DNA of 64,000 nt. Source: Candidatus Acidulodesulfobacterium sp. Lineage in GTDB: Bacteria; SZUA-79; Acidulodesulfobacterales; Acidulodesulfobacteraceae. The stretch's first letter is position 1; every line of letters starts with the position of its first letter. Of this stretch, positions 11,777-62,683 are shown piece after piece. The notes under the pieces are model-generated. The model was not told where the DNA came from. It did not search any database and saw only the letters and a program-made list of their open reading frames with translations. The stretch covers positions 53,917 through 117,916 of the forward strand of contig JBMFVW010000001.1 in NCBI GenBank assembly GCA_049965795.1, written 5' to 3'. The position numbers were made by a program, and so were the translations under genes.

Positions 11777-11853
11777 GCGTTCATAGCTCAGATGGATAGA
11801 GCAACAGCCTTCTAAGCTGTGGGTCGCAGGTTCGAATCCTGCTGGACGCACCA
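11777..11853 (+). tRNA. tRNA-Arg (anticodon TCT), CCA encoded
   Basis: Cloverleaf read by eye: acceptor GCGTTCA/TGGACGC, D-arm GCTCAGATGGATAGAGC, anticodon arm ACAGC-CTTCTAA-GCTGT, T-arm GCAGGTTCGAATCCTGC, then ACCA. Confidence 0.93.
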
Positions 11854-32608: not shown

Positions 32609-32954
32609 CGGCCGTAAGCAAAATCGTAAGCCGGGTTCTGTATATGCCGGTCATTTCTCTGTGCGAACAACCCGAAGACCTTACAAGGCGAGCAGCCTTG
32701 ATCTTCCTATTTGTTCTTGCTCCTAACGGGGCTTGCCATAGACATTATTTGCATAATGCCTAAGTGAGCTCTTACCTCACTATTTCACCCTTACCTCTTT
32801 ACCGTTTCGGCAATTAAGAGGCGGTATATTTTCTGTTGCGCTTTCCTTAAAGTCGCCTTCACCGGTTTAAAACGGCGTTATGCTCTTTGGAGCCCGGACT
32901 TTCCTCAAAAAACAAAGAGTTTTTTGCGACCGACCGCTTTTGCTTACGACCGAC
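32609..32954 (-). ncRNA. rnpB: RNase P RNA (bacterial type A)
   Basis: The minus strand contains 'GAGGAAAGTCCGGGCTCC', 'GGTAAGGGTGAAATAGTGAGGTAAGAGCTCAC' and 'ACAGAACCCGGCTTACG'. The P1 helix pairs 5' CGTAAGCAAAA with 3' TTTTGCTTACG. End coordinates are +/- a few nt. Confidence 0.9.
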
Positions 32955-35336: not shown

Positions 35337-35412
35337 TGGTGGGCCCACCCGGGTTCGAACCAGGGACCAACCGGTTATGAGCCGGCCGCTCTACCAGCTG
35401 AGCTATAGGCCC
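35337..35412 (-). tRNA. tRNA with CAT anticodon (elongator Met or lysidine-modified Ile2), CCA encoded
   Basis: Reverse complement is GGGCCTATAGCTCAGCTGGTAGAGCGGCCGGCTCATAACCGGTTGGTCCCTGGTTCGAACCCGGGTGGGCCCACCA. It folds as a full cloverleaf. The anticodon stem lacks the three G-C pairs of an initiator tRNA. Confidence 0.9.
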
Positions 35413-53782: not shown

Positions 53783-54562
53783 TTATTCCGACCTTGTTAT
53801 ATAAACGTCGTAACCGTATTTTGCTATAGTTTTCGCAAAATTGTAAGCATCCTGCAGGTTTTTAAAACTGCCGAATACTACTTTATAATAAAGAGATCCG
53901 TTTATATTTTTTTCTATAAGATGAACGCCTGGGACAAATTTTTTCATTTTCGATATTTTGTTTAGCGCTTTATTTTTTCTCGTATAAGCGGCAAACTGCA
54001 GCGTATAGCCGCAAACCGGAGGCGCATGTTTTACAGCCGGTACAGCCGGCACTATTCCGCTTGCGTTATAATATCTTTTACATTGAGCTAAAGAAACCGG
54101 ATTTGGACCTAAGTACTGTACTCTTACCAATGCCGTCCCCGGTCCTACCATATTTAAAGCTCTTGCCGCCGCATACGAAAGATCCATAATCCTGCCGTCG
54201 GCATAAGGTCCTCTATCGTTAACCAAAACCTCCACGCTCCTATGATTTTCAAGATCCGTTACATAGGCATAACTGTTTAAGGGAAGGGTTAGAGAAGCTG
54301 CCGTTAAATCGTACATGTTATAAATTTGACCGCTTGCGGTGGGTCTGCCCTGAAATCCGGGACCATACCATGAAGCTACGCCTATTTCTACGTCGTTAGA
54401 TATGCGTTTAGGAGGGTAATATCCTGGAGGAGGAGCATATCCTTGGCTGCTTTGTCCTGAATAATTTCCTCCTATTATATAAGGAACGCAGCCCGAAAGA
54501 AAAATTGCCGGCATCAAAACAAAAAATAAAATTAATATTAAGGTTATTTTTTTATTTGACAT
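53783..54562 (-). CDS. rlpA: RlpA-family lipoprotein (DPBB domain + C-terminal SPOR domain)
   Basis: Lipobox 'FLSGC'. 'GVASWYGPGFQGRPTASGQIYN', 'VEVLVNDRGPY' and a SPOR-like 'YTLQFAAYTRKNKA..'. Confidence 0.88.
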   Translation of the reverse strand: MSNKKITLILILFFVLMPAIFLSGCVPYIIGGNYSGQSSQGYAPPPGYYPPKRISNDVEIGVASWYGPGFQGRPTASGQIYNMYDLTAASLTLPLNSYAYVTDLENHRSVEVLVNDRGPYADGRIMDLSYAAARALNMVGPGTALVRVQYLGPNPVSLAQCKRYYNASGIVPAVPAVKHAPPVCGYTLQFAAYTRKNKALNKISKMKKFVPGVHLIEKNINGSLYYKVVFGSFKNLQDAYNFAKTIAKYGYDVYITRSE

Positions 54563-54692
54563 ATTTTATATTTATGCTATATAATAAAACTATATCTTTA
54601 AATAAGTTAAAATTTAGCCGTTTAAAATATTATCGTATCTTTTTCACAATTATATAATTAAATAGACTGTTAAACAAGTCTATAATATTAAT

Positions 54693-54803
54693 GTTCTTAT
54701 CGAGAGCGGTAGAGGGACGGGCCCTTTGAAACCGCAGCAACCGTTTAGTTTCTAATAAAATCGGTGCTAATTCCCGCAGGTTCATTCCTGGAAGATAAGA
54801 AGA
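54693..54803 (+). promoter_or_regulatory. SAM-I (S-box) riboswitch aptamer
   Basis: 'GTTCTTATCGAGAGCGGTAGAGGGACGGGCCCTTTGAAACCGCAGCAACC...GGTGCTAATTCCCGCAG...GGAAGATAAGAAG' matches the S-box consensus blocks (P1 TTCTTATC/GATAAGAA, kink-turn GA, GGTGCTAATTCC). Confidence 0.92.
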
Positions 54804-54812
54804 AACGAGTTT

Positions 54813-54857
54813 AAAAACCTCTTCTTCCTAATTTTCGGGAAGAAGAGGTTTTTTTAT
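54813..54857 (+). terminator. Riboswitch expression-platform terminator
   Basis: ACCTCTTCTTCC-loop-GGAAGAAGAGGT followed by T7. The 3' arm is a near-copy of the aptamer P1 3' strand (GGAAGATAAGAAG), which would allow an antiterminator alternative. Confidence 0.85.
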
Positions 54858-54886
54858 TTATTAATAAATTAAAACAAGGAGACAAA

Positions 54887-56134
54887 ATGTTCGTAAAAGG
54901 TTTAAAATGCAGGGAATGCGGCAAAGAATATCCTGACAGTCCGCTTTATGTTTGCGATTATTGTTTCGGTCCGCTTGAAGTGGATTACGATTACGATAAA
55001 ATCAAAAAAGAAATAACGAAGGAAAAAATAAAATCGCGCGATGCAAATATGTGGCGTTATCAAGAACTTCTCCCTATCAAAGGAGAAATAAAAATAGGCA
55101 AAAACGTCGGATATACGCCTCTTGTAAAAGCGGATAATCTTGCAAAAGCTCTCGGCGTTAAAGAAATATACGTTAAAAACGATGCCGTAAACTTTCCTAC
55201 CCTATCTTTTAAAGACAGAGTCGTTTCGGTAGCCATTGCAAAGGCGAGAGAATTCGGTTTTAAAACCGTCGCGTGCGCATCGACCGGCAACCTTGCAAAT
55301 TCCGTTGCCGCATTGGCAGCTTCCTCAAGCTACGAAAGTTTTGTATTTATACCGTCGAATCTTGAAACGGGGAAAGTATTGGGAACTCTTATATACGACA
55401 CCAATCTCGTTAAAATTAACGGCAGTTACGATAAAGTCAACAGGCTCTGCACCGAAATCGCCGGCAAACACAGCTGGGCATTCGTAAATATCAACTTAAG
55501 ACCTTATTATGCCGAAGGCTCAAAATCTCTTACTTTCGAAATGCTCGAACAGTTAGGATTCAAAGCTCCGGATAACGTCGTAGTTCCAATGGCAGGCGGC
55601 TCTTTAATAACAAAAGTCGGCAAAGCCATTGACGAATTCGACTACTGCGGACTGCTTAACGAAAAACCGCATACGCGAATTTTCGGGGCGCAGGCAACCG
55701 GTTGCAACCCTATAACCTCAACCGTCAAAGAAAAAAGAGAATTTATAAAACCGGTAAGAACTCCGGATACTATTGCAAAATCGCTTGCAATCGGCAATCC
55801 TGCCGACGGCTACTATGCATCAGACCTGATGAATAAAACCGGCGGGTACGGCGAAGATGCAACAGACGAAGAAATAGTAGAAGGCATGAAGCTTCTTGCC
55901 GCAACCGAAGGCATATTTACCGAAACTGCGGGGGGCGTTACAGTTGCAGTAGCTAAAAAACTCATAGAAAAAGGCTATATAAACAAAAACGAAACGACGG
56001 TTCTTGCTATTACCGGAAACGGGCTTAAAACTCTAGAAGCCCTAAACGGAAAATTAAAAGAAGCTCCGGTTATCGAAGCCAACTTAGAAGAATTTGAAGG
56101 AGTTCTCTCTAAAATTAAAAGAAAAGGTAAATAA
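54887..56134 (+). CDS. Threonine-synthase-family PLP enzyme with N-terminal zinc ribbon; predicted sulfur-carrier-dependent homocysteine synthase rather than ThrC
   Basis: 'CRECGKEY..CDYCFGPLE' ribbon. PLP lysine 'PTLSFKDR' and 'ASTGNLANS'. First gene behind a SAM riboswitch and followed by sulfur-carrier genes. Confidence 0.8.
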   Translation: MFVKGLKCRECGKEYPDSPLYVCDYCFGPLEVDYDYDKIKKEITKEKIKSRDANMWRYQELLPIKGEIKIGKNVGYTPLVKADNLAKALGVKEIYVKNDAVNFPTLSFKDRVVSVAIAKAREFGFKTVACASTGNLANSVAALAASSSYESFVFIPSNLETGKVLGTLIYDTNLVKINGSYDKVNRLCTEIAGKHSWAFVNINLRPYYAEGSKSLTFEMLEQLGFKAPDNVVVPMAGGSLITKVGKAIDEFDYCGLLNEKPHTRIFGAQATGCNPITSTVKEKREFIKPVRTPDTIAKSLAIGNPADGYYASDLMNKTGGYGEDATDEEIVEGMKLLAATEGIFTETAGGVTVAVAKKLIEKGYINKNETTVLAITGNGLKTLEALNGKLKEAPVIEANLEEFEGVLSKIKRKGK

Positions 56135-56182
56135 TTGATTATATTAAAATAATTTTAATTATAAAATAAAAGGAGGATAAAA

Positions 56183-56698
56183 ATGCCTATAAAAGTAAGA
56201 ATACCCACGCCGCTTAGAACTTTAACCGGTGGAAAAGCGGAAGTGGAATCTAACGGTTCAAATATTATCGAAATAATTAACGATTTAGAGAAAAATTTTT
56301 CGGGAATAAAAGAAAGAATATGCGAACAGAACGATCAGGTAAGAAGATTCGTGAACGTTTATCTTAACGACGAAGACATAAGATTTATAGACAATATAAA
56401 TTCAAAGGTCAAAGACGGCGATACTATTTCCATAATTCCGGCAATAGCAGGCGGCGCGCCCGAAAAAAAAAAGTTTTATCTTAACTATCCGCAGGAAGTA
56501 ATTAAAGAACCGCTAATTTATCTTGTCGGAAAAAACTACAACGTTATCACTAATATCAGAAGCGCAAGCATATCCAACGATATAGGGATAATAGCAATAG
56601 AACTCGAAGGCGAAACCAAAGATATAGAAAAAGCGGTTAAATTTTTGGAATCCAAAGGCGTAACGGTAGAACCTATCGTTCTCGACGTCGTAGAATGA
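56183..56698 (+). CDS. CysO/MoaD/ThiS-type sulfur-carrier domain with internal Gly-Gly, fused to a C-terminal NIL-like domain
   Basis: Residues 1-92, 'VRIPTPLRTLTGGKAEV...DLEKNFSGIKERI...RFVNVYLNDEDIRF...DGDTISIIPAIAGG', closely parallel mycobacterial CysO as I recall it. The ~78 aa after the GG resemble the NIL domain of MetN-type proteins. Confidence 0.75.
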   Translation: MPIKVRIPTPLRTLTGGKAEVESNGSNIIEIINDLEKNFSGIKERICEQNDQVRRFVNVYLNDEDIRFIDNINSKVKDGDTISIIPAIAGGAPEKKKFYLNYPQEVIKEPLIYLVGKNYNVITNIRSASISNDIGIIAIELEGETKDIEKAVKFLESKGVTVEPIVLDVVE

Positions 56699-56707
56699 TA
56701 AATTTGC

Positions 56708-56738
56708 GACAGGGACAGAATTAAATTCTGTCCCTGTC
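56708..56738. repeat. REP-like palindromic unit (perfect 15-bp arms), possible intra-operon attenuator/stabiliser
   Basis: GACAGGGACAGAATT-A-AATTCTGTCCCTGTC, 10 nt after the stop of the carrier gene. Followed only by TTT and then an A-run. Confidence 0.75.
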
Positions 56739-56762
56739 TTTAAAAAAGCGGAGGAAGGAAAA

Positions 56763-57566
56763 TTGAATTTTACCGAAGAACAGATTAAAAGATATGCAAG
56801 GCATATTATACTTCCGGAAGTCGGAGGAGAAGGACAGGAAAAACTTCTTTCGTCAAAAGTTCTTCTTATCGGCGCCGGAGGATTAGGCGCTCCCTGCGGA
56901 TATTACCTCGGGGCTGCCGGAATAGGCACTCTCGGCATAGTCGATTACGATACGGTTGATTTGTCTAACCTGCAAAGACAGATTTGGCACGGAAACGCCG
57001 ACGTAGGAAGATATAAGGTGGACTCTGCCAAAGACTCGATAGAACGCATTAACCCAGACGTAAAAGTTATTCCTTATAAAGAAGGCATAAATATAAACAA
57101 CATTAAAGATTTAATAAAAGAATACGACGTAATAATAGACGCGACCGATAATTTCCCGACGAGATATTTAATTAACGACGCCTGCCATTTTATGAAAAAA
57201 CCTCTTGTTTACGGTTCTATTTTCAGGTTTGACGGACAGGCAACAGTATTTTTGCCGGATGAAGGTCCATGCTACAGATGTCTTTTTCCAACCCCTCCGC
57301 CTGCAGGTCTCGTCCCCAGCTGTCAAGAAGCCGGAGTGCTCGGCGTTCTTCCCGGGGTTATAGGAGCTATTCAGGCAAACGAAGCTATAAAAATAATTCT
57401 GGGCATCGGACAGACTTTAAACGGAAGGCTTCTTATTTATGACGCTCTCGATATGAAATTTACCGAAATGAAACTCAGGCAGGATAAAACTTGCCCGCTT
57501 TGCGGCGAAAATCCGACGGTATTAGAATTGATTGAATACGGCGACCTTTGTGAATTTAAGAATTAA
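56763..57566 (+). CDS. MoeB/ThiF/MoeZ-type E1-like adenylyltransferase (no rhodanese domain)
   Basis: 'RYARHIILPEVGGEGQEKL', nucleotide loop 'LLIGAGGLGAP', 'NLQRQ', and zinc CxxC pairs 'CYRC' and 'CPLC'. TTG start. Confidence 0.9.
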   Translation: MNFTEEQIKRYARHIILPEVGGEGQEKLLSSKVLLIGAGGLGAPCGYYLGAAGIGTLGIVDYDTVDLSNLQRQIWHGNADVGRYKVDSAKDSIERINPDVKVIPYKEGININNIKDLIKEYDVIIDATDNFPTRYLINDACHFMKKPLVYGSIFRFDGQATVFLPDEGPCYRCLFPTPPPAGLVPSCQEAGVLGVLPGVIGAIQANEAIKIILGIGQTLNGRLLIYDALDMKFTEMKLRQDKTCPLCGENPTVLELIEYGDLCEFKN

Positions 57567-57625
57567 ACTTAACGACGGAGCAGCGGAAAAGGTGCCGGAT
57601 TTATTTATTAAACTTAACAACGGAG
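57562..57625 (+). repeat. 19-bp direct repeat (1 mismatch) flanking a 26-bp copy of the GGTGCCGGATTT repeat module
   Basis: ATTAAACTTAACGACGGAG (57562..57580) and ATTAAACTTAACAACGGAG (57607..57625). The insert CAGCGGAAAAGGTGCCGGATTTATTT matches 44947..44970. Confidence 0.7.
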
Positions 57626-57632
57626 TAAAAAG

Positions 57633-57881
57633 ATGTCCGAATATAAAGAAAACGAGGAACTAAATATAAAAGGCGAGATATGCCCGTTTACTTTCGTTAA
57701 ATCTAAACTTGTTTTAGAAAAAATGAAAAAGGGCGAAATTTTAAGAGTAATAGTAGATTACGAACCTGCAATAAGAAACGTACCCCGCTCTATGGAAGAA
57801 CAGGGCCATAAAGTATTATCCATAAATAAAATAAACGAAACCGATTACGAAATTATCGTTGAAAAAGATGGAAAAAAATAA
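57633..57881 (+). CDS. TusA/SirA-family sulfurtransferase
   Basis: 82 aa with the conserved 'GEICPFTF' Cys-Pro motif near the N-terminus. Confidence 0.85.
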   Translation: MSEYKENEELNIKGEICPFTFVKSKLVLEKMKKGEILRVIVDYEPAIRNVPRSMEEQGHKVLSINKINETDYEIIVEKDGKK

Positions 57882-58815
57882 ATCCTGTTTTAATATTTTT
57901 AATATTTCAGATATTTTTAATTCGGCATCCAATATAGGCGGCACAGGAATAGTCCTGTTAAATAAAATCGTTAAAACTTCCTCGCACGGTTCAAAATTAT
58001 ATGCAAAACTCGAAGGTCTTAATCCGGGAGGCTCCGTAAAAGACAGGCCTGCGCTCTATATGATAAAAAACGCCGTAGAAAAAGGTTTAATAAAAGAAAA
58101 TACCTCTATAATAGATTCGTCTTCCGGAAATACTGGAATTTCCTATGCAATGATAGGAGCGCTTCTCGGCATAAAAGTTAAAATTTACGCTCCCTCAAAT
58201 ATGAGCGAAGAAAGAAAAAAAATAATGCGTCTTTACGGAGCGGAATTAATACTTACCCCCGCCGAAGAAAGCCATGACGGAGCTATAAAACGGGCGGAAG
58301 AAGAATATAAAAAAGGCGGCAAAGATGTTTACTATATGCCGGACCAGTACAATAATTCTTACAACCCCATATCCCATTATGAAACAACGGCAGTCGAAAT
58401 TATTAAACAAACAGGCGGGAATATCGATTATTTTGCTACAGGCATAGGGACCGGCGGAACAATATTGGGAGTAGGAAAAAGACTTAAAGAATATAACGAT
58501 AAAATAAAAATTATAGCCGTTGTTCCCGACAGCGAAATGCACGGCATCGAAGGATGGAAATACAACTATTCTTTAAATTTCGACGGATTCAACGCCGATA
58601 AAATTATAGACGATTTTGTTAAAGTGGATACAGAAGGCAGCTATGATGCTTTAAAAAGACTCGTAAAAGAAGAAGGTATCCTGTGCGGATTTTCTTCAGG
58701 CGCCAACGTCTACGGAATACTTAAGCTTACTGCTAAATATAAAGGTAATTTTGCTACGGTACTTCCGGATACCGGTTCAAGATATCTTTCAACAAGAGTT
58801 TTTTCGGAGTTTTGA
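57859..58815 (+). CDS. cysM: Cysteine synthase family PLP enzyme (CysM/CysK-like; likely thiocarboxylate-dependent)
   Basis: 'NPGGSVKDRPA' PLP-lysine motif, 'SSGNTGIS' and 'GIGTGGT'. The true start may be Met4 (57868). Confidence 0.88.
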   Translation: MKKMEKNKSCFNIFNISDIFNSASNIGGTGIVLLNKIVKTSSHGSKLYAKLEGLNPGGSVKDRPALYMIKNAVEKGLIKENTSIIDSSSGNTGISYAMIGALLGIKVKIYAPSNMSEERKKIMRLYGAELILTPAEESHDGAIKRAEEEYKKGGKDVYYMPDQYNNSYNPISHYETTAVEIIKQTGGNIDYFATGIGTGGTILGVGKRLKEYNDKIKIIAVVPDSEMHGIEGWKYNYSLNFDGFNADKIIDDFVKVDTEGSYDALKRLVKEEGILCGFSSGANVYGILKLTAKYKGNFATVLPDTGSRYLSTRVFSEF

Positions 58816-58876
58816 TTAACATTTTAAGTAATAACTGATTGGCAGATACGTTAAAATAAGGATATAATATATTATT

Positions 58877-59308
58877 ATGGCTATTATAATTCCAAAAAGC
58901 GAACTAGAGATTATAAAAAAGCATGCGGCTGATATTTTTCCATATGAAGCATGCGGCGGACTTCTGGGAAAAATAGAAGGGGAAAACAAAATTATAGTAA
59001 AAACCTATCCTGCGGAAAATCGCTACGGAAAAATAACTTGGGACAGTTTTGAGATAGAACCTAAGGATATATTGGAAATGGATAAATTTTGCATGAAAGA
59101 AAATCTCGATATTCTGGGATTTTACCATACGCACCCAAACCATCCGGCAGTCCCTTCCAACTTTGATATCAACGCTTCCTGGCCTTTTTACTCATACGTA
59201 ATTATTTCCGTAAAAGGAAATACCCCAGAAAAAGTAGCAGACATTAAAAGCTACCTTATGCCCGACAGAACCGCCGTTCCGACCGAAGAAGAAGTTATAA
59301 TAAGCTGA
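58877..59308 (+). CDS. JAMM/MPN+ metalloprotease (Mec+/HcyD-like)
   Basis: 'EACGGLLG' (Glu) and 'GFYHTHPNHPAVPSNFD' (HxHx7Sx2D JAMM motif). Confidence 0.88.
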   Translation: MAIIIPKSELEIIKKHAADIFPYEACGGLLGKIEGENKIIVKTYPAENRYGKITWDSFEIEPKDILEMDKFCMKENLDILGFYHTHPNHPAVPSNFDINASWPFYSYVIISVKGNTPEKVADIKSYLMPDRTAVPTEEEVIIS

Positions 59309-60551
59309 AATTTTTAGGAGAAAACGACAAAACATTTTGTATAACTTCAGGATTGCCTTTCCTTCCGGAAAGCCACCTTTTTTTCCAATATTCTATAAGA
59401 TCATCTACACTATAATTAAAATATTCCAATTCATCCGTGCGTCCGTTTAAAAAATCCAAGGAATTATATGCCAAAGGCACATAATATATATCTCTTTTAA
59501 TAGAATGATTTAAAAGAAAATTAGCGTCTAATCCATAATTTTCTAAAAATCTAAGGGCTTTTTTAATAAACCTGAATTTATAATTTGAACCGTCCCCGAA
59601 TTTATATCCTACCTCCTTGCCTTCTTTAGTTTTCAATAAATTTTTTAAAAGTTCGTTAGTGCGATTAGAAAATTGAAAAGTACCGAAACCTTTAGTCTGG
59701 CCTATTCTTTTATAGAGCAGTTCGCCGTTATATTTTATCCTATTGTACTGCGAACTCTTACCGTATAAACTAGTAGTAAAAATTGCCGCTAGATTTGATG
59801 ATTTTCTCTTGTTAATTATAGTAGTCCGATTCAAATATTTATTTTGAAAAATTTCCATAACTTCTTTTGACGCCATTGTATAAGCAATTAATTTCCCGCC
59901 AAGTAGATAAGAATATGGTGGTACTGCGCCGCACACATAAAGATCCATACAGTAAACTAAATTTTTATTTTTAGTTTCCCTATCCCACCCGATAAAATCG
60001 TCTCTTTCCGGTATTCTTATAATTGAACTGCCCAATGCAGCAATTCCTATAACAGGTTTATAATCTATAGCCGCATCTCTTATAATAAATTTAATCCGTC
60101 TTCCGACATATTCGCTGTAAGGACTCGACCAAGTATATCTTAACATTCTAAACAAATCTCTTTGTTGCTGAGTTTCGCATATTTCGATAATAGGGGAGAT
60201 AACGGAGTTAAAACAATCATATCCATTTGCAATATTTTTCGTAAATATCTCTCTATTTTTATTGATAAAATAGGCATTTTTATTTATAATTTCTTCTTTT
60301 CTGGGAAGAATTAAATTTCTTATGAAATCTTTATCATTTAAATCCGAAGCATTATTTTCAAATTGAAATTTACCTTTTTCATAAGAAAATTTAAAATTTA
60401 ATGCGGAAATATCACTGCAGACAGAAGCGACAATATCATTTTCTAACTCGGATGACTCTAATCCTAATCGGTCTATTGGCTGATTTTCAATTTCGATATT
60501 TTGCGTCAATACCGGTAGAGGAAAGTAATTAAAATTATCGTCAAAAGGCAT
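59295..60551 (-). CDS. DUF4338-like (DruA-type domain) protein, third gene of the NurA/HerA operon
   Basis: Core (~aa 135-295): 'VGRRIKFIIRD...PVIGIAALGSSIIRIPERDDFIGW...LGGKLIAYTM...TTSLYGKSSQYNRIKY...IGQTKGFG'. This follows the block order I recall for Pfam DUF4338. Not verified by HMM. Confidence 0.55.
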   Translation of the reverse strand: MPFDDNFNYFPLPVLTQNIEIENQPIDRLGLESSELENDIVASVCSDISALNFKFSYEKGKFQFENNASDLNDKDFIRNLILPRKEEIINKNAYFINKNREIFTKNIANGYDCFNSVISPIIEICETQQQRDLFRMLRYTWSSPYSEYVGRRIKFIIRDAAIDYKPVIGIAALGSSIIRIPERDDFIGWDRETKNKNLVYCMDLYVCGAVPPYSYLLGGKLIAYTMASKEVMEIFQNKYLNRTTIINKRKSSNLAAIFTTSLYGKSSQYNRIKYNGELLYKRIGQTKGFGTFQFSNRTNELLKNLLKTKEGKEVGYKFGDGSNYKFRFIKKALRFLENYGLDANFLLNHSIKRDIYYVPLAYNSLDFLNGRTDELEYFNYSVDDLIEYWKKRWLSGRKGNPEVIQNVLSFSPKNFSLL

Positions 60552-60553
60552 GT

Positions 60554-62683
60554 TTATTTTTGATTCATTTTTTCATTCCATTTAAAGGTAGGTATGCAGA
60601 CAAAAGGCTTAGATTCTTCTTGCCCATTCATAAAATGCGGACCCTGAAGTATTTCAATTTCGTCTTCAATACAATCAAATATATAGCTAAATATTGGTTT
60701 ATACAGGTCGTCTTCTTTTCTGATTTCGTTTTTAAACTCTTCTTTTTCCTTAACATCACGCACTATATAATATAATCTGCCTTTTAAAATGCCGGTTTTA
60801 TTTTTATCGCTAAAATCTTGAGTCTTAAGTTTATTGTTTTTAAAATCGCTCTTTATAACTCTGAATACTTCCTCGGCCATTAATTTTATACGCTCGTTAG
60901 ATCTTTTAACAACTAACATGGCCGTAGAATTTTCATATTTTTTATTACTTTCGGGATTGCCTTCTTTTACTATATATTTTTTGTAAAGGCTTTCAAAACT
61001 TCGTATTCTGACCGGCAGGACAAAAGGCTGAAGAGGCGCGCTCCACATATAGCAATTTCCTATTATAGGCTCGTTAATAATATTTAAAATAATATCCTTT
61101 GAATAAAAGGAATTATATCTTTGCAAAATGGAGGCATCGCCTTCCGATAAAACGTGAAAAACGAACCAATTATCCGATTGACTTAATATTTCCGGAGCTA
61201 TGGAGCCAGGCTGCTGGGTAACCATAATAGCGCCTAAATCATATTTTCTACCCTCTTTAACCCATTCTACAAAAGGGCTTGTTTCAGAAAGCGATTTGCC
61301 TAAAACACTCTGCGCTTCCTCCATTATTGCAATAACGGGAATAGAAGAACCGTCTCCGGTGAAATTTTCCTGATTAAAATTAAATATATTTCTCATTATA
61401 AGTCCGGCAACATTATTACCTGCGGTTGAACTCAGCAGACTTATATCCACTATTACGACCCTGCCTTCTTTCAGTAAAATTTCTACTTCCTCTACTAATC
61501 TGCTGTTCGGATCGTGCAAATGACTTACTAAATTATACATGTTGCTTTTTGCGGCACTTATCTCGGCTGATTGACCTGAAGCAGCATCTTTGTTATAGCC
61601 CATAATCTTGGCTATCTCTTTATCGTCCGCCTGCATTCCGTCTTTTTCTATAATATCCACCAATTTTTTCCAATTATCTATTTTTAGACTTTTTAATTTA
61701 ATAATATTTTGCTGCTCCTGCCTGTCTGGCGAAATTGCTATGCCTATAACGTCCCTTGGCAAAAGAGACTTAATATTAAGTTTAACGTCTCCCGCCTTCC
61801 AACTGCCATAATATGTACTTATAGATTTCCTGTTCGTAAAAACAGCAATAATGTCTTTTAAGTGAGGCACATCGCACAAGGCAGGCCTGTTTTTATTATC
61901 CGGCCAAAAATATTCTCCGTCTGGATCAAATATTAAGGTCCCGACTTTTTTATTTTTATCCGTTACAGCATATTTTCCGTTATCTTTATAAAGTTCCGAA
62001 ACCAGATATTTAATTAGATTTGATTTCCCGTAACCCGCTCTTGCAAATACTACCGACCTTTTAGAAACAATATTATTTATATTAAATTTAACGTTAAGAT
62101 TAGGTTCTATATACTGAAAATTAGAAAGATAATCATGTACACCCGTGTTAGCGTTATTGTCGGTGTTTTTTCCGGAATATATAAATTCGCCGAGTACGTA
62201 ATTGCCAAGATCTGTTTCCCCCTGGCTTAGCGAACATAACTCCCTTAATACTTCATCGCTTGGAAGCGAAACTTTAGCACCAAGATGCGGTATCCTGCGC
62301 AGCGAAGGTATAAAAATAATCTTATCTTTCGACTGCTCGACCTGCACTATTTTGACGGCGCCGAGCAGTTTAATCTGCACCTTATATTTTAACTTATCTT
62401 TTTTTAAATCGTCCGGCACAGTCTGCCCTCTTTTTTGAAGTGCCATAATATAGTCTTCGCCTTCTACCGATGAAAGAAGACCTGCGGGGGCAAAATTTGT
62501 TATTCTGGCAAGAGAGGCCTCAAGAGGGTTTGCAAGCTCTATTAATAAAAATTGACCTAATTGCGGTCTTTCAAGCATACGCGCATCATATGGAGTAACG
62601 ACTTCGGCTGAAAATTCGTAACCTGATTCCACCGAGCCCTTAAAGATACCCATTAAATCAGATTTTGCAAATAGTTCAAGCAT
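60554..62683 (-). CDS. HerA-like FtsK/HerA-superfamily ATPase
   Basis: N-terminal HAS-barrel-like segment. Walker A 'ARAGYGKSN', Walker B 'VIAIMEEAQSV', 'IMVTQQPGSI' and 'NWFVFHVLSEGD', in HerA order. C-terminal extension of ~130 aa that I do not recognise. Confidence 0.8.
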   Translation of the reverse strand: MLELFAKSDLMGIFKGSVESGYEFSAEVVTPYDARMLERPQLGQFLLIELANPLEASLARITNFAPAGLLSSVEGEDYIMALQKRGQTVPDDLKKDKLKYKVQIKLLGAVKIVQVEQSKDKIIFIPSLRRIPHLGAKVSLPSDEVLRELCSLSQGETDLGNYVLGEFIYSGKNTDNNANTGVHDYLSNFQYIEPNLNVKFNINNIVSKRSVVFARAGYGKSNLIKYLVSELYKDNGKYAVTDKNKKVGTLIFDPDGEYFWPDNKNRPALCDVPHLKDIIAVFTNRKSISTYYGSWKAGDVKLNIKSLLPRDVIGIAISPDRQEQQNIIKLKSLKIDNWKKLVDIIEKDGMQADDKEIAKIMGYNKDAASGQSAEISAAKSNMYNLVSHLHDPNSRLVEEVEILLKEGRVVIVDISLLSSTAGNNVAGLIMRNIFNFNQENFTGDGSSIPVIAIMEEAQSVLGKSLSETSPFVEWVKEGRKYDLGAIMVTQQPGSIAPEILSQSDNWFVFHVLSEGDASILQRYNSFYSKDIILNIINEPIIGNCYMWSAPLQPFVLPVRIRSFESLYKKYIVKEGNPESNKKYENSTAMLVVKRSNERIKLMAEEVFRVIKSDFKNNKLKTQDFSDKNKTGILKGRLYYIVRDVKEKEEFKNEIRKEDDLYKPIFSYIFDCIEDEIEILQGPHFMNGQEESKPFVCIPTFKWNEKMNQK

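What the first reader, a model, noticed from the sequence alone, without database searches (positions are those of the whole stretch)
54693..59308. SAM-riboswitch-controlled sulfur-carrier-protein operon with a ThrC-like enzyme: predicted thiocarboxylate-dependent homocysteine/cysteine synthesis
A textbook S-box aptamer plus terminator precedes six genes: a ThrC-family PLP enzyme, a CysO-like carrier, a MoeB/MoeZ-like E1, TusA, a CysM-like PLP enzyme and a JAMM protease. CysO-CysM-Mec+-MoeZ is the established mycobacterial thiocarboxylate route to cysteine. HcyS-HcyF-HcyD-MetY is the Wolinella route to homocysteine. SAM control would be unexpected for a true threonine synthase. The ThrC-like protein is therefore more plausibly a homocysteine synthase that uses O-phosphohomoserine and carrier thiocarboxylate. 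A ThrC-like MetM acting with a sulfur-carrier MetO has, to my recollection, been reported in Streptomyces. Having both ThrC-like and CysM-like enzymes share one carrier under one riboswitch is unusual.
Basis: partly seen in the sequence, partly recalled or inferred. Interest (0 to 1): 0.6.

Follow-up and report, generated by a model that had tools for sequence, protein, structure and literature searches.

The report
SAM-controlled carrier-protein homocysteine/cysteine operon
This is a methionine-regulated operon for the recently published MetM/MetO route, which makes homocysteine from sulfur carried on a small ubiquitin-like protein; here the carrier is made as a precursor fused to a methionine-sensor-like NIL domain that published accounts do not mention.

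Summary
A SAM-I riboswitch (93.6 bits) with a terminator precedes six co-oriented genes: a ThrC-like PLP enzyme, a carrier, an E1, TusA, a CysM-like PLP enzyme and a JAMM protease.

The ThrC-like protein is not the housekeeping threonine synthase, which lies in a hom-thrC-homoserine-kinase operon on another contig. It groups (SH-aLRT 90, 51-53% identity) with Streptomyces genes arranged as published for metM/metO: SAM riboswitch, metM, then a 91-aa carrier. The genome has no MetA, MetX, Cys/Met gamma-PLP enzyme, COG1900 route or MetE, but it has MetH. Among 16 relatives from distinct families, the ThrC-like gene and PF01053 enzymes never co-occur (6 versus 8).

The pathway is published (Hasebe 2024; GapMind 2026). 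The two-PLP-enzyme layout recurs in about 19 of 80 loci.

The NIL half matches the methionine-binding C2 domain of MetN and keeps its key Asn. The operon also encodes the genome's only E1 and only CysK/M enzyme.

This scan has noted MetM-NIL-MetO operons before, in at least 74 other genomes.

The parts
54556..54585 (+). Candidate sigma-70 promoter (TTGACA-18-TATAAT, 12 of 12). A second perfect TATAAT lies at 54681-54686, 7 nt before the aptamer.
   Evidence: Consensus scan; sequence. This is a pattern match only. The number of hits in the region equals the shuffle expectation.
54694..54801 (+). SAM-I (S-box) riboswitch aptamer
   Evidence: RF00162, 93.6 bits, E 3.6e-21, full model. It is the only SAM riboswitch in the genome.
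54813..54860 (+). Intrinsic terminator (17-bp stem plus U-tract) forming the expression platform. The P1 3' strand (GGAAGA..) can pair with its left arm as a weak antiterminator.
   Evidence: Terminator -24.1 kcal/mol; candidate antiterminator -7.5 kcal/mol.
54887..56134 (+). metM-like gene: ThrC-family PLP enzyme (415 aa) with an N-terminal 4-Cys zinc ribbon. Predicted O-phosphohomoserine and carrier-thiocarboxylate-dependent homocysteine synthase.
56183..56455 (+). Carrier, CysO/MetO-type ThiS domain (residues 1-91) ending in an invariant ..IIPAIAGG
   Evidence: 4N6E_B 1e-26; 3DWG_C 2e-22; TM 0.90-0.93.
56456..56698 (+). NIL domain (residues 92-171) fused in frame after the Gly-Gly. It has a MetN-C2-like fold and an invariant TNIR.AS motif.
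   Evidence: (junction residues 88-91 have pLDDT < 50).
56763..57566 (+). E1 adenylyltransferase (MoeB/ThiF/UbaA type, 267 aa, no rhodanese). It is the only ThiF-family gene in the genome.
57633..57881 (+). TusA-family sulfurtransferase (82 aa, Cys in the ..GEICPFT.. motif). Presumed persulfide donor to the E1-carrier adenylate.
57859..58815 (+). CysK/CysM-family PLP enzyme (318 aa). It is the only member of that family in the genome, and its start overlaps the end of tusA.
   Evidence: (cysKM 302 bits, below cut-off).
58877..59308 (+). JAMM/Mec-type metalloprotease (143 aa) with an intact E..HxHx7Sx2D motif. Predicted to cut after the Gly-Gly and to release the amino acid from the carrier adduct.

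Best explanation
The operon encodes a self-contained protein-thiocarboxylate route to homocysteine of the MetM/MetO type, and probably also to cysteine. It is switched off by SAM through a terminator-type SAM-I riboswitch. Proposed steps: (1) The carrier is translated as a CysO-like-GlyGly-NIL precursor. (2) The JAMM protease cuts after Gly91 and frees the Gly-Gly C-terminus and the NIL domain. (3) The rhodanese-less E1 adenylates the carrier. (4) Sulfur arrives as a persulfide on TusA, or as sulfide, and gives the carrier thiocarboxylate. (5) The ThrC-like MetM enzyme replaces the phosphate of O-phosphohomoserine with the thiocarboxylate sulfur; O-phosphohomoserine comes from the separate hom / apgM-type homoserine kinase operon. 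(6) JAMM hydrolyses the carrier-homocysteine adduct. (7) MetH methylates homocysteine to methionine. The CysM-like enzyme, the only CysK/M homologue in the genome, probably draws on the same thiocarboxylate with O-acetylserine (CysE is present) or O-phosphoserine to make cysteine. Shown here: the gene content, the riboswitch, the family placement, the absence of alternative routes, and the fold of the carrier. Inferred: every chemical step, the JAMM cleavage, the role of TusA, and carrier sharing by CysM.
For: Riboswitch and terminator; it is the only SAM riboswitch in the genome. A separate hom-thrC-homoserine kinase (TIGR02535, 513 bits) operon exists. No HTS/MetA, MetX, HcyBio or MetE was found, and MetH is present. 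All weak PF01053 hits are other PLP enzymes. The enzyme is 56-64% identical to homologues in at least 600 species genomes but only 36% identical to its own genome's ThrC. A ThiS-type carrier follows it directly in about 70 of 80 loci. A SAM-I riboswitch lies upstream in 27 of 80 loci from at least 7 phyla, and Rfam agreed with the regex in 19 of 19 loci checked. Six named Streptomyces genomes show riboswitch, metM-like gene (51-53% identity), then a 91-aa carrier ending in GG, as the literature describes for S. albulus metM/metO (PMC12172450; PMC13759103). In the tree, housekeeping ThrCs are split off at 100 and the window protein groups with the Streptomyces genes at 90. Twenty-four catalytic-domain positions are fixed differently from ThrC, including the phosphate loop. 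Five diverse genomes each have exactly two ThrC-family genes. The MetM-like gene and PF01053 are mutually exclusive in 16 relatives from distinct families (6/8/2/0), and PF01053 is found in 0 of 24 genomes of the organism's own family. The carrier is CysO-like, the Gly-Gly junction is disordered in the model, and the JAMM motif is intact. All 8 NIL-fused loci with enough flank have a JAMM gene in the cluster.
Against: There is no biochemical or expression evidence, and no RNA run holds the locus. The clade joining the window protein to Streptomyces metM has SH-aLRT 90, which is not decisive, and the S. albulus protein itself could not be fetched; orthology to it rests on synteny, the riboswitch and the genus. 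NCBIfam's thrC model scores the protein above its cut-off (271 versus 167 bits). The CysM-like protein is no closer to the M. tuberculosis CysM than to ordinary CysK/CysM: the Mtb enzyme is not among the top 60 PDB hits. It could simply use free sulfide. The NIL-JAMM association is not significant on phylogenetically independent pairs (p >= 0.25). It is unexplained how the sole E1 and the sole cysteine synthase are expressed when SAM is high.
Confidence: 0.82

Rival explanations
1. The carrier system serves only the CysM-like enzyme, as a mycobacterial-type CysO-CysM-Mec-MoeZ cysteine route. The ThrC-like enzyme makes homocysteine from O-phosphohomoserine with free sulfide, without the carrier.
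For: The carrier's nearest solved relatives are CysO proteins. The organism's relatives come from sulfide-rich mine-drainage settings. PMC12172450 tested Na2S with a cyanobacterial homologue.
Against: The carrier gene directly follows the ThrC-like gene in about 70 of 80 loci, and most of those have no CysM-like gene nearby. The Streptomyces system is reported to use MetO thiocarboxylate (PMC13759103).
Confidence: 0.08
2. The CysM-like enzyme is an ordinary O-acetylserine sulfhydrylase that uses free sulfide or thiosulfate. It is merely co-transcribed, and only MetM uses the carrier.
For: CysE is present (259 bits). The best PDB hits are ordinary CysK/CysM enzymes. The protein scores below the NCBIfam cysM cut-off without any sign of a special subtype.
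Against: A CysM-like gene recurs inside these carrier clusters in about 19 of 80 loci, and is enriched where JAMM, E1 and NIL are also clustered. The carrier is CysO-like. The gene is translationally overlapped with tusA.
Confidence: 0.35
3. The ThrC-like protein is a second, SAM-regulated threonine synthase.
For: TIGR00260 scores it at 271 bits, above the cut-off. Every source annotates the family as threonine synthase.
Against: A housekeeping thrC exists with hom and a homoserine kinase. The two form separate clades at 100% support, and 24 fixed differences include the phosphate-binding loop. The gene is linked to a carrier and a SAM riboswitch across phyla. It is mutually exclusive with PF01053 enzymes.
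Confidence: 0.02
4. The E1, carrier and JAMM form a ubiquitin-like protein-conjugation (SAMP/UbaA/desampylase-type) system rather than, or in addition to, a sulfur relay.
For: NCBIfam's best carrier hit is SAMP1 (50 bits, below cut-off). The E1 hits the SAMP-activating UbaA model and the JAMM hits the desampylase model.
Against: All those scores are below their cut-offs. The carrier is much closer to CysO. The two PLP enzymes, TusA and the SAM riboswitch make up a biosynthetic context.
Confidence: 0.04

Closest known systems
MetM/MetO/Mec/MoeZ route of Streptomyces albulus (Hasebe et al. 2024, Appl Environ Microbiol 90:e01247-24; known here only through PMC12172450 and PMC13759103)
   Same: Both have a ThrC-homologous enzyme followed by a ThiS/MoaD-type carrier behind a SAM riboswitch, and both need a JAMM (Mec) hydrolase and an E1. 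The enzyme here is 51-53% identical to Streptomyces orthologues and the carrier about 52%. They fall in the same clade.
   Different: Here all components sit in one operon. The carrier is a Gly-Gly-NIL precursor, whereas the Streptomyces carrier is 91 aa and stops at GG. The E1 lacks a rhodanese domain and a TusA gene is adjacent. A CysM-like gene is included. The host belongs to Ca. Acidulodesulfobacteriota, a different phylum.
CysO-CysM-Mec+-MoeZ cysteine route of Mycobacterium tuberculosis (PDB 3DWG)
   Same: Both have a CysO-type carrier (E 2e-22, TM 0.90), a CysK/M-family PLP enzyme, a JAMM hydrolase and an E1.
   Different: The CysM-like enzyme is not specifically Mtb-CysM-like. CysE is present, so O-acetylserine is available. 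The E1 has no rhodanese domain. The carrier is fused to NIL.
HcyS-HcyD-HcyF-MetY route of Wolinella succinogenes (Krishnamoorthy and Begley 2011; from my own knowledge)
   Same: Both make homocysteine from a carrier thiocarboxylate, and in both a protease must first trim the carrier to expose the Gly-Gly.
   Different: The sulfur-accepting enzyme there is MetY (PF01053) acting on O-acetylhomoserine. This genome has no PF01053 enzyme and no homoserine acyltransferase.
C2/NIL domain of the E. coli MetNI methionine importer (PDB 3DHW, 3DHX, 3TUI)
   Same: The fold is the same (Foldseek probability 1.0, 22-25% identity). The N-I-x-S-A motif is retained, including the Asn (MetN N295) whose mutation abolishes L-methionine binding (PMC6233128).
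   Different: Here the domain is fused to a sulfur carrier rather than to an ABC ATPase. Ligand binding has not been tested.
Thermus thermophilus 'MoaD-related protein' (PDB 1V8C, 165 aa, structural genomics)
   Same: It is a two-domain protein whose N-terminal half matches the carrier (E 6e-9) and which aligns with the model over both halves (175 columns).
   Different: Identity is only 18-20%, the domain orientation differs (rmsd 14 A), and no function is assigned. Whether its second domain is a NIL domain was not established.

Membership tests
MetM/MetO thiocarboxylate homocysteine pathway | ThrC-homologous PLP enzyme that is a paralogue of, not identical with, the housekeeping ThrC | tested here: met
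   A second thrC lies in a hom-thrC-Hse kinase operon. The two are 36% identical and fall in separate clades at 100% SH-aLRT.
MetM/MetO thiocarboxylate homocysteine pathway | Groups with the characterized Streptomyces MetM | tested here: inconclusive
   The protein shares a clade with six named Streptomyces riboswitch-metM-metO loci (SH-aLRT 90; 51-53% identity). The S. albulus protein itself (A0A059WBP2) could not be fetched.
MetM/MetO thiocarboxylate homocysteine pathway | Adjacent ThiS/MoaD-type carrier with a Gly-Gly terminus | tested here: met
   The carrier lies 48 nt downstream and has the invariant ..PAIAGG. The Gly-Gly is internal, followed by NIL, which is a variation on the published form.
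MetM/MetO thiocarboxylate homocysteine pathway | SAM riboswitch upstream of metM | tested here: met
   RF00162 at 93.6 bits. The same is seen in 27 of 80 related loci and in 6 of 6 Streptomyces loci.
MetM/MetO thiocarboxylate homocysteine pathway | Mec (JAMM) hydrolase and MoeZ-type E1 available | tested here: met
   The JAMM has an intact HxHx7Sx2D motif. An E1 is present, but it has no rhodanese domain, so it is not MoeZ-like in architecture.
MetM/MetO thiocarboxylate homocysteine pathway | O-phosphohomoserine plus carrier thiocarboxylate gives homocysteine (enzyme activity) | not testable with these tools
   This needs in vitro reconstitution. The indirect support is the supply of O-phosphohomoserine (TIGR02535 kinase) and the lack of every other known route.
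Threonine synthase (ThrC, TIGR00260 equivalog) | Orthology with housekeeping ThrC and conserved phosphate-binding residues | tested here: not met
   The HMM score is above the cut-off (271 bits). However, the protein sits in a separate clade, and 24 positions are fixed differently, for example STGNTS to STGNLA and S.N..R to N.R..Y.
M. tuberculosis-type CysO-dependent CysM | CysM-subfamily membership and O-phosphoserine specificity | tested here: inconclusive
   TIGR01138 cysM scores 291 bits against a cut-off of 394. The Mtb CysM is not among the best 60 PDB hits. Specificity residues were not examined.
Wolinella HcyS/HcyD/HcyF/MetY route | MetY (PF01053) as the thiocarboxylate-accepting enzyme | tested here: not met
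   There is no genuine PF01053 protein in the genome or in 24 genomes of the same family.
NIL domain (PF09383, MetN C2-like) | Profile match, beta-alpha-beta-beta-alpha-beta fold, conserved Asn of the N-I-L motif | tested here: met
   Pfam scores 47 bits against a cut-off of 24. Foldseek matches 3DHW, 3TUI and 3DHX. N124 aligns with MetN N295. Methionine binding itself is not testable here.
SAM-I riboswitch (RF00162) | Full-length covariance-model match above gathering score, with an expression platform | tested here: met

The most novel reading that the evidence does not exclude
The NIL module is a methionine- or homocysteine-sensing regulatory partner of the carrier. In the fused form it caps the Gly-Gly terminus, so the carrier cannot be adenylated until the JAMM protease removes it. 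Ligand binding at the conserved MetN-N295-like site would control that cleavage, or would control the freed NIL domain's action on MetM or the E1. This would add a fast protein-level feedback to the SAM riboswitch. A corollary follows from the operon holding the genome's only E1: methionine status would also gate sulfur supply to MoaD and ThiS.
Probability: 0.25. Interest if true: 0.7.

Novelty: new variant of a known kind. Interest (0 to 1): 0.45.

Why it matters
The MetM/MetO route was described only in 2024, in Streptomyces. This locus and the 80 compared loci show that the same enzyme-carrier pair is very widespread. It occurs in at least 600 species genomes from a dozen phyla, and in about a third to two fifths of the sampled Actinomycetota. 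Databases label it 'threonine synthase' and 'MoaD family protein' almost everywhere. It appears to be the only homocysteine route in organisms such as this acid-mine-drainage bacterium, so metabolic reconstructions that miss it will wrongly predict methionine auxotrophy. The conserved NIL partner, whether fused, adjacent or absent, retains the methionine-binding Asn of MetN. I found no mention of it in the accounts of the pathway that I could read, which marks a testable gap in the published model.

Tried and rejected
1. The primary paper (PMC11497804) is not held, so pathway details come from two citing papers.
2. The search for related loci with an 18-sequence alignment failed because it had no conserved stretch. 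A 9-sequence alignment worked.
3. Sampling the class of the actinomycete locus L084 did not reach Streptomyces, since all genomes were <= 5.4 Mb. The phylum sample did.
4. I considered that TusA substitutes for a rhodanese domain, so that short E1s would pair with TusA and long E1s would carry rhodanese. I rejected this as a general rule. The long planctomycete E1s have no Pfam rhodanese domain, and only L032's E1 has one.
5. The NIL-JAMM and NIL-CysM associations are strong in raw counts (6/6, 4/10 and 1/36; 5/6, 6/10 and 3/36). On independent pairs they are underpowered (p >= 0.25), so they are reported as suggestive only.
6. My tblastn paralogue search missed two divergent ThiS-family carriers that the Pfam profile found. 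The 'only carrier' claim is withdrawn. The 'only E1' claim was re-tested with the profile and holds. 'Only TusA, JAMM and NIL' rest on tblastn alone.
7. No RNA holder is listed for the locus, and only small DNA shares were found.
8. There is no room for a methionine-codon leader ORF of the kind earlier notes describe elsewhere: the 85 nt between aptamer and start codon contain no ATG.
9. Sequence search of the NIL half alone against the PDB is weak (E 0.058). The link to MetN C2 rests on the Pfam profile and the fold.

Full report
OBSERVATION

Rfam finds a full-length SAM-I (S-box) aptamer at window 54694-54801 on the + strand, at 93.6 bits against a gathering score of 44.4. It is followed by a 17-bp G+C-containing hairpin at 54813-54853 and a U-tract. 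The whole leader folds with z = -5.3 against shuffles.

The 3' strand of P1 (GGAAGA..) can pair with the left arm of the terminator at -7.5 kcal/mol. This is the usual S-box antiterminator logic, although the helix is weak here.

Six co-oriented ORFs follow, with gaps of 48-66 nt and one overlap:
- 54887-56134: PALP/thrC.
- 56183-56698: ThiS plus NIL.
- 56763-57566: ThiF-type E1.
- 57633-57881: TusA.
- 57859-58815: PALP/cysKM.
- 58877-59308: Prok-JAB.

The flanking genes are unrelated and on the other strand: rlpA-like and kdsB upstream, DruA and a HerA-type ATPase downstream. One omission is that the carrier is a two-domain protein.

THE ThrC-LIKE PROTEIN IS NOT THE THREONINE SYNTHASE

The genome is 1.63 Mb, 99% complete, 36% G+C. 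It is closest to Candidatus Acidulodesulfobacterium.

It has a second thrC that scores higher against TIGR00260 (312.7 versus 271.8 bits). That gene sits between homoserine dehydrogenase and an apgM-type 'proposed homoserine kinase' (TIGR02535, 513 bits, above its cut-off). Threonine synthesis and a supply of O-phosphohomoserine are therefore accounted for elsewhere. The two paralogues are 36% identical.

NO OTHER ROUTE TO HOMOCYSTEINE IS DETECTABLE

Profile searches of the whole genome gave these results:
- No homoserine O-succinyl- or O-acetyltransferase (PF04204, TIGR01392).
- No COG1900/HcyBio.
- No MetE.
- MetH is present.

The seven weak PF01053 hits turned out to be a class-V aminotransferase, BioF/Kbl, aspartate aminotransferase, a NifS/IscS desulfurase, HisC, SelA and GlyA. 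The remaining weak ThrC-family hit is TrpB.

This is also the only SAM riboswitch in the genome.

FAMILY PLACEMENT

The protein belongs to a tightly conserved family:
- The family occurs in Nitrospirota, Nitrospinota, Planctomycetota, Verrucomicrobiota, Cyanobacteriota, Actinomycetota, Acidobacteriota, Chloroflexota, Aquificota, Bacillota (Heliomicrobium) and several candidate phyla.
- It was found in 173 of 401 sampled genomes of Actinomycetota and in 134 of 401 of one of its classes. These two tallies include a few genomes flagged as unpublished, and no other claim rests on those genomes.
- Every source calls these proteins 'threonine synthase'.

Six 7-10 Mb, 69-70% G+C genomes were identified by exact-sequence look-up as Streptomyces (S. 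achromogenes, Streptomyces sp. NPDC057877 and cluster mates). In each, a SAM-I riboswitch (74-78 bits) precedes a homologue 51-53% identical to the window's enzyme. A 91-aa ThiS-type gene that ends at Gly-Gly follows directly and is about 52% identical to the window's ThiS half. This is the arrangement the literature reports for S. albulus metM/metO (PMC12172450). GapMind 2026 lists MetO, Mec, MoeZ and MetM as experimentally supported (PMC13759103; bioRxiv 10.1101/2024.10.14.618325).

In a maximum-likelihood tree of 122 proteins:
- The housekeeping ThrCs of eight genomes form one group, split from the rest at 100% SH-aLRT.
- The window's protein, 62 proteins from other loci and the six Streptomyces proteins form one clade at 90%.

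Twenty-four positions of the catalytic domain are fixed differently in the two groups, while the PLP-binding residues are shared. The differences include the phosphate-binding loop (STGNTS in ThrC, STGNLA here) and the segment S.N..R versus N.R..Y. The N-terminal four-Cys zinc ribbon is invariant in the family and absent from the housekeeping ThrCs.

COMPARATIVE GENOMICS SUPPORTS THE FUNCTION

- Five phylogenetically distant genomes that carry the gene each have exactly two ThrC-family genes above the cut-off.
- Among 16 relatives belonging to 16 different families, 6 have the MetM-like gene and no genuine PF01053 enzyme. Eight have PF01053 enzymes and no MetM-like gene. Two have neither, and none has both.
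- In the organism's own family, the MetM-like gene is found in 21 of 24 genomes and PF01053 in 0 of 24.
- A ThiS-type carrier gene directly follows the MetM-like gene in about 70 of 80 loci.
- A SAM-I riboswitch lies directly upstream in 27 of 80 loci from at least seven phyla. The regex call agreed with Rfam in 6 of 6 positives and 13 of 13 negatives.
- None of the cyanobacterial loci has a riboswitch, which agrees with PMC12172450.

THE CARRIER IS A PRECURSOR

Residues 1-91 are a CysO-type ubiquitin fold:
- 4N6E_B matches at E 1e-26 and M. tuberculosis CysO (3DWG_C) at 2e-22. Both of those chains end at the Gly-Gly.
- The model superposes on them at TM 0.90-0.93.

After ..IIPAIAGG the chain continues for 80 residues as a NIL domain (Pfam 47 bits). 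In an AlphaFold model (mean pLDDT 83.5) both halves are confident, and the junction at residues 88-91 falls below pLDDT 50.

The NIL half matches the methionine-binding C2 domain of E. coli MetN (3DHW, 3TUI, 3DHX). Its N124-I-R-S-A aligns with MetN N295-I-I-S-A. N124 and A128 are invariant in 24 fused carriers. MetN N295A reduces L-methionine binding to undetectable levels (PMC6233128).

The fusion itself is common. About 4,900 clusters match at E <= 0.001, and nearly all of those listed carry both domains. It is conserved in 22 of 24 genomes of the organism's family.

Across the 80 loci, what follows the Gly-Gly falls into four classes:
- A stop codon directly after the Gly-Gly. This is the most common case and includes all cyanobacteria and Streptomyces.
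- A tail of 1-6 residues.
- A fused NIL domain (9 loci, from at least six phyla).
- In one actinobacterium, a fused E1.

In 18 further loci a stand-alone NIL gene lies in the cluster, usually directly after the carrier. NIL is therefore a partner in its own right and not merely a removable cap.

A free Gly-Gly carboxylate is required for adenylation. This is established for ThiS, MoaD and CysO. The fused form must therefore be cut, and the JAMM protein of the operon has an intact catalytic motif.

All 8 NIL-fused loci with enough flanking DNA have a JAMM gene in the cluster. Counting only loci with long flanks on both sides, the figures are 6 of 6 fused, 4 of 10 with a separate NIL gene, and 1 of 36 without NIL. 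On phylogenetically independent pairs the direction is consistent, but the test is underpowered. I treat the association as suggestive.

THE CysM-LIKE ENZYME AND THE E1

The CysM-like gene is the only CysK/CysM-family gene in the genome. A genuine CysE is present (259 bits). It is therefore very probably the cell's cysteine synthase.

Whether it takes sulfur from the carrier, as M. tuberculosis CysM does from CysO, or from free sulfide cannot be decided here. It is no closer to the Mtb enzyme than to ordinary CysK/CysM. However, CysM-like genes recur in these clusters in about 19 of 80 loci. This also shows that the layout of two PLP enzymes with one carrier is not unusual.

The E1 is the only ThiF/MoeB-family protein in the genome by profile search (285.6 bits; the next hit is 17.9 bits). 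It has no rhodanese domain. The adjacent TusA and a NifS/IscS-type desulfurase elsewhere are plausible sulfur donors.

The genome also holds a MoaD-MoaE fusion and a thiS-thiG pair. The operon's E1 probably serves three carriers. It is unexplained how the E1 and the only cysteine synthase are expressed when SAM closes the riboswitch. Only weak promoter-like matches lie inside the operon.

COMPARISON WITH WHAT IS KNOWN, AND NOVELTY

The chemistry and the core gene pair are those of the published MetM/MetO pathway. The carrier, hydrolase and E1 logic is that of the mycobacterial CysO system and of the Wolinella HcyS system, where a protease also unmasks the Gly-Gly.

The features that differ here are:
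- The complete six-gene, single-riboswitch organisation in a small genome of a candidate phylum.
- The NIL-fused precursor carrier.
- A rhodanese-less E1 with TusA alongside.
- The E1 being the genome's only one.

I found no description of the NIL partner in the papers I could search. In GapMind 2026 the main text mentions NIL once, for the unrelated aspartate-semialdehyde route.

Earlier notes of this scan have repeatedly reported MetM-NIL-MetO operons, in 87 notes from at least 74 genomes. They include the remark that NIL is sometimes fused to the carrier. My tests were made independently and agree with them. The methionine-codon leader ORF that some of those notes describe is not present here.

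VERDICT

The system is a new variant of a known kind. Its interest lies mainly in the unexplained NIL module and in the regulatory puzzle of the sole E1 and sole cysteine synthase sitting behind a SAM riboswitch.

Noticed in passing
window 59295-62683 (- strand): A DruA-family protein (PF14236, 219 bits, 418 aa) and a 709-aa HerA/DUF87 ATPase are encoded convergently to the operon. The DruA stop region overlaps the last 14 nt of the JAMM gene. This is a candidate Druantia-like defence pair.
   Followed up: no
G000:C1:43293-43904 (about 10 kb before the window start) and G000:C15:35303-36325: A MoaD-MoaE fusion ORF (236 aa) and a thiS-thiG pair exist, but the SAM-riboswitch operon holds the genome's only ThiF/MoeB-family E1. 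That E1 probably serves three carriers, and its regulation by SAM is unexplained.
   Followed up: partly
L037:8229-9296 (uncultured Actinomycetota): The carrier is fused through its Gly-Gly to the E1 itself (ThiS 4-90 plus ThiF 100-335, 355 aa). A separate NIL gene follows, and JAMM, CysM-like and TusA genes lie upstream.
   Followed up: partly
L016, L018, L021 (Nitrospirota / Thermodesulfovibrio): The MetM-like gene, the carrier (with a 2-4 residue tail after GG), a stand-alone NIL gene and the housekeeping-type thrC lie in a row. No riboswitch was detected where upstream sequence was available.
   Followed up: no
L063, L071, L090, L091 (Nitrospirota): Two E1 genes of about 270 aa flank the MetM-like, carrier and NIL genes, with a CysM-like gene first in the cluster.
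   Followed up: no
window 58839-58868 (+): A near-consensus promoter-like site (TTGGCA-18-TATAAT, 11 of 12) lies in the 61-nt gap before the JAMM gene. It could allow riboswitch-independent expression of the protease.
   Followed up: no
PDB 1V8C (Thermus thermophilus 'MoaD related protein', 165 aa): A solved structural-genomics protein aligns with the carrier model over both domains. It may be an uncharacterized relative of the carrier-plus-second-domain architecture.
   Followed up: partly
window 32611-32946 (-), 11777-11850 (+), 35340-35412 (-); G000:C3:73106-74551: The window holds an RNase P RNA (class A, 245.6 bits) and two tRNA genes. A selA gene (560 bits) elsewhere in the genome indicates that the organism uses selenocysteine.
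   Followed up: no
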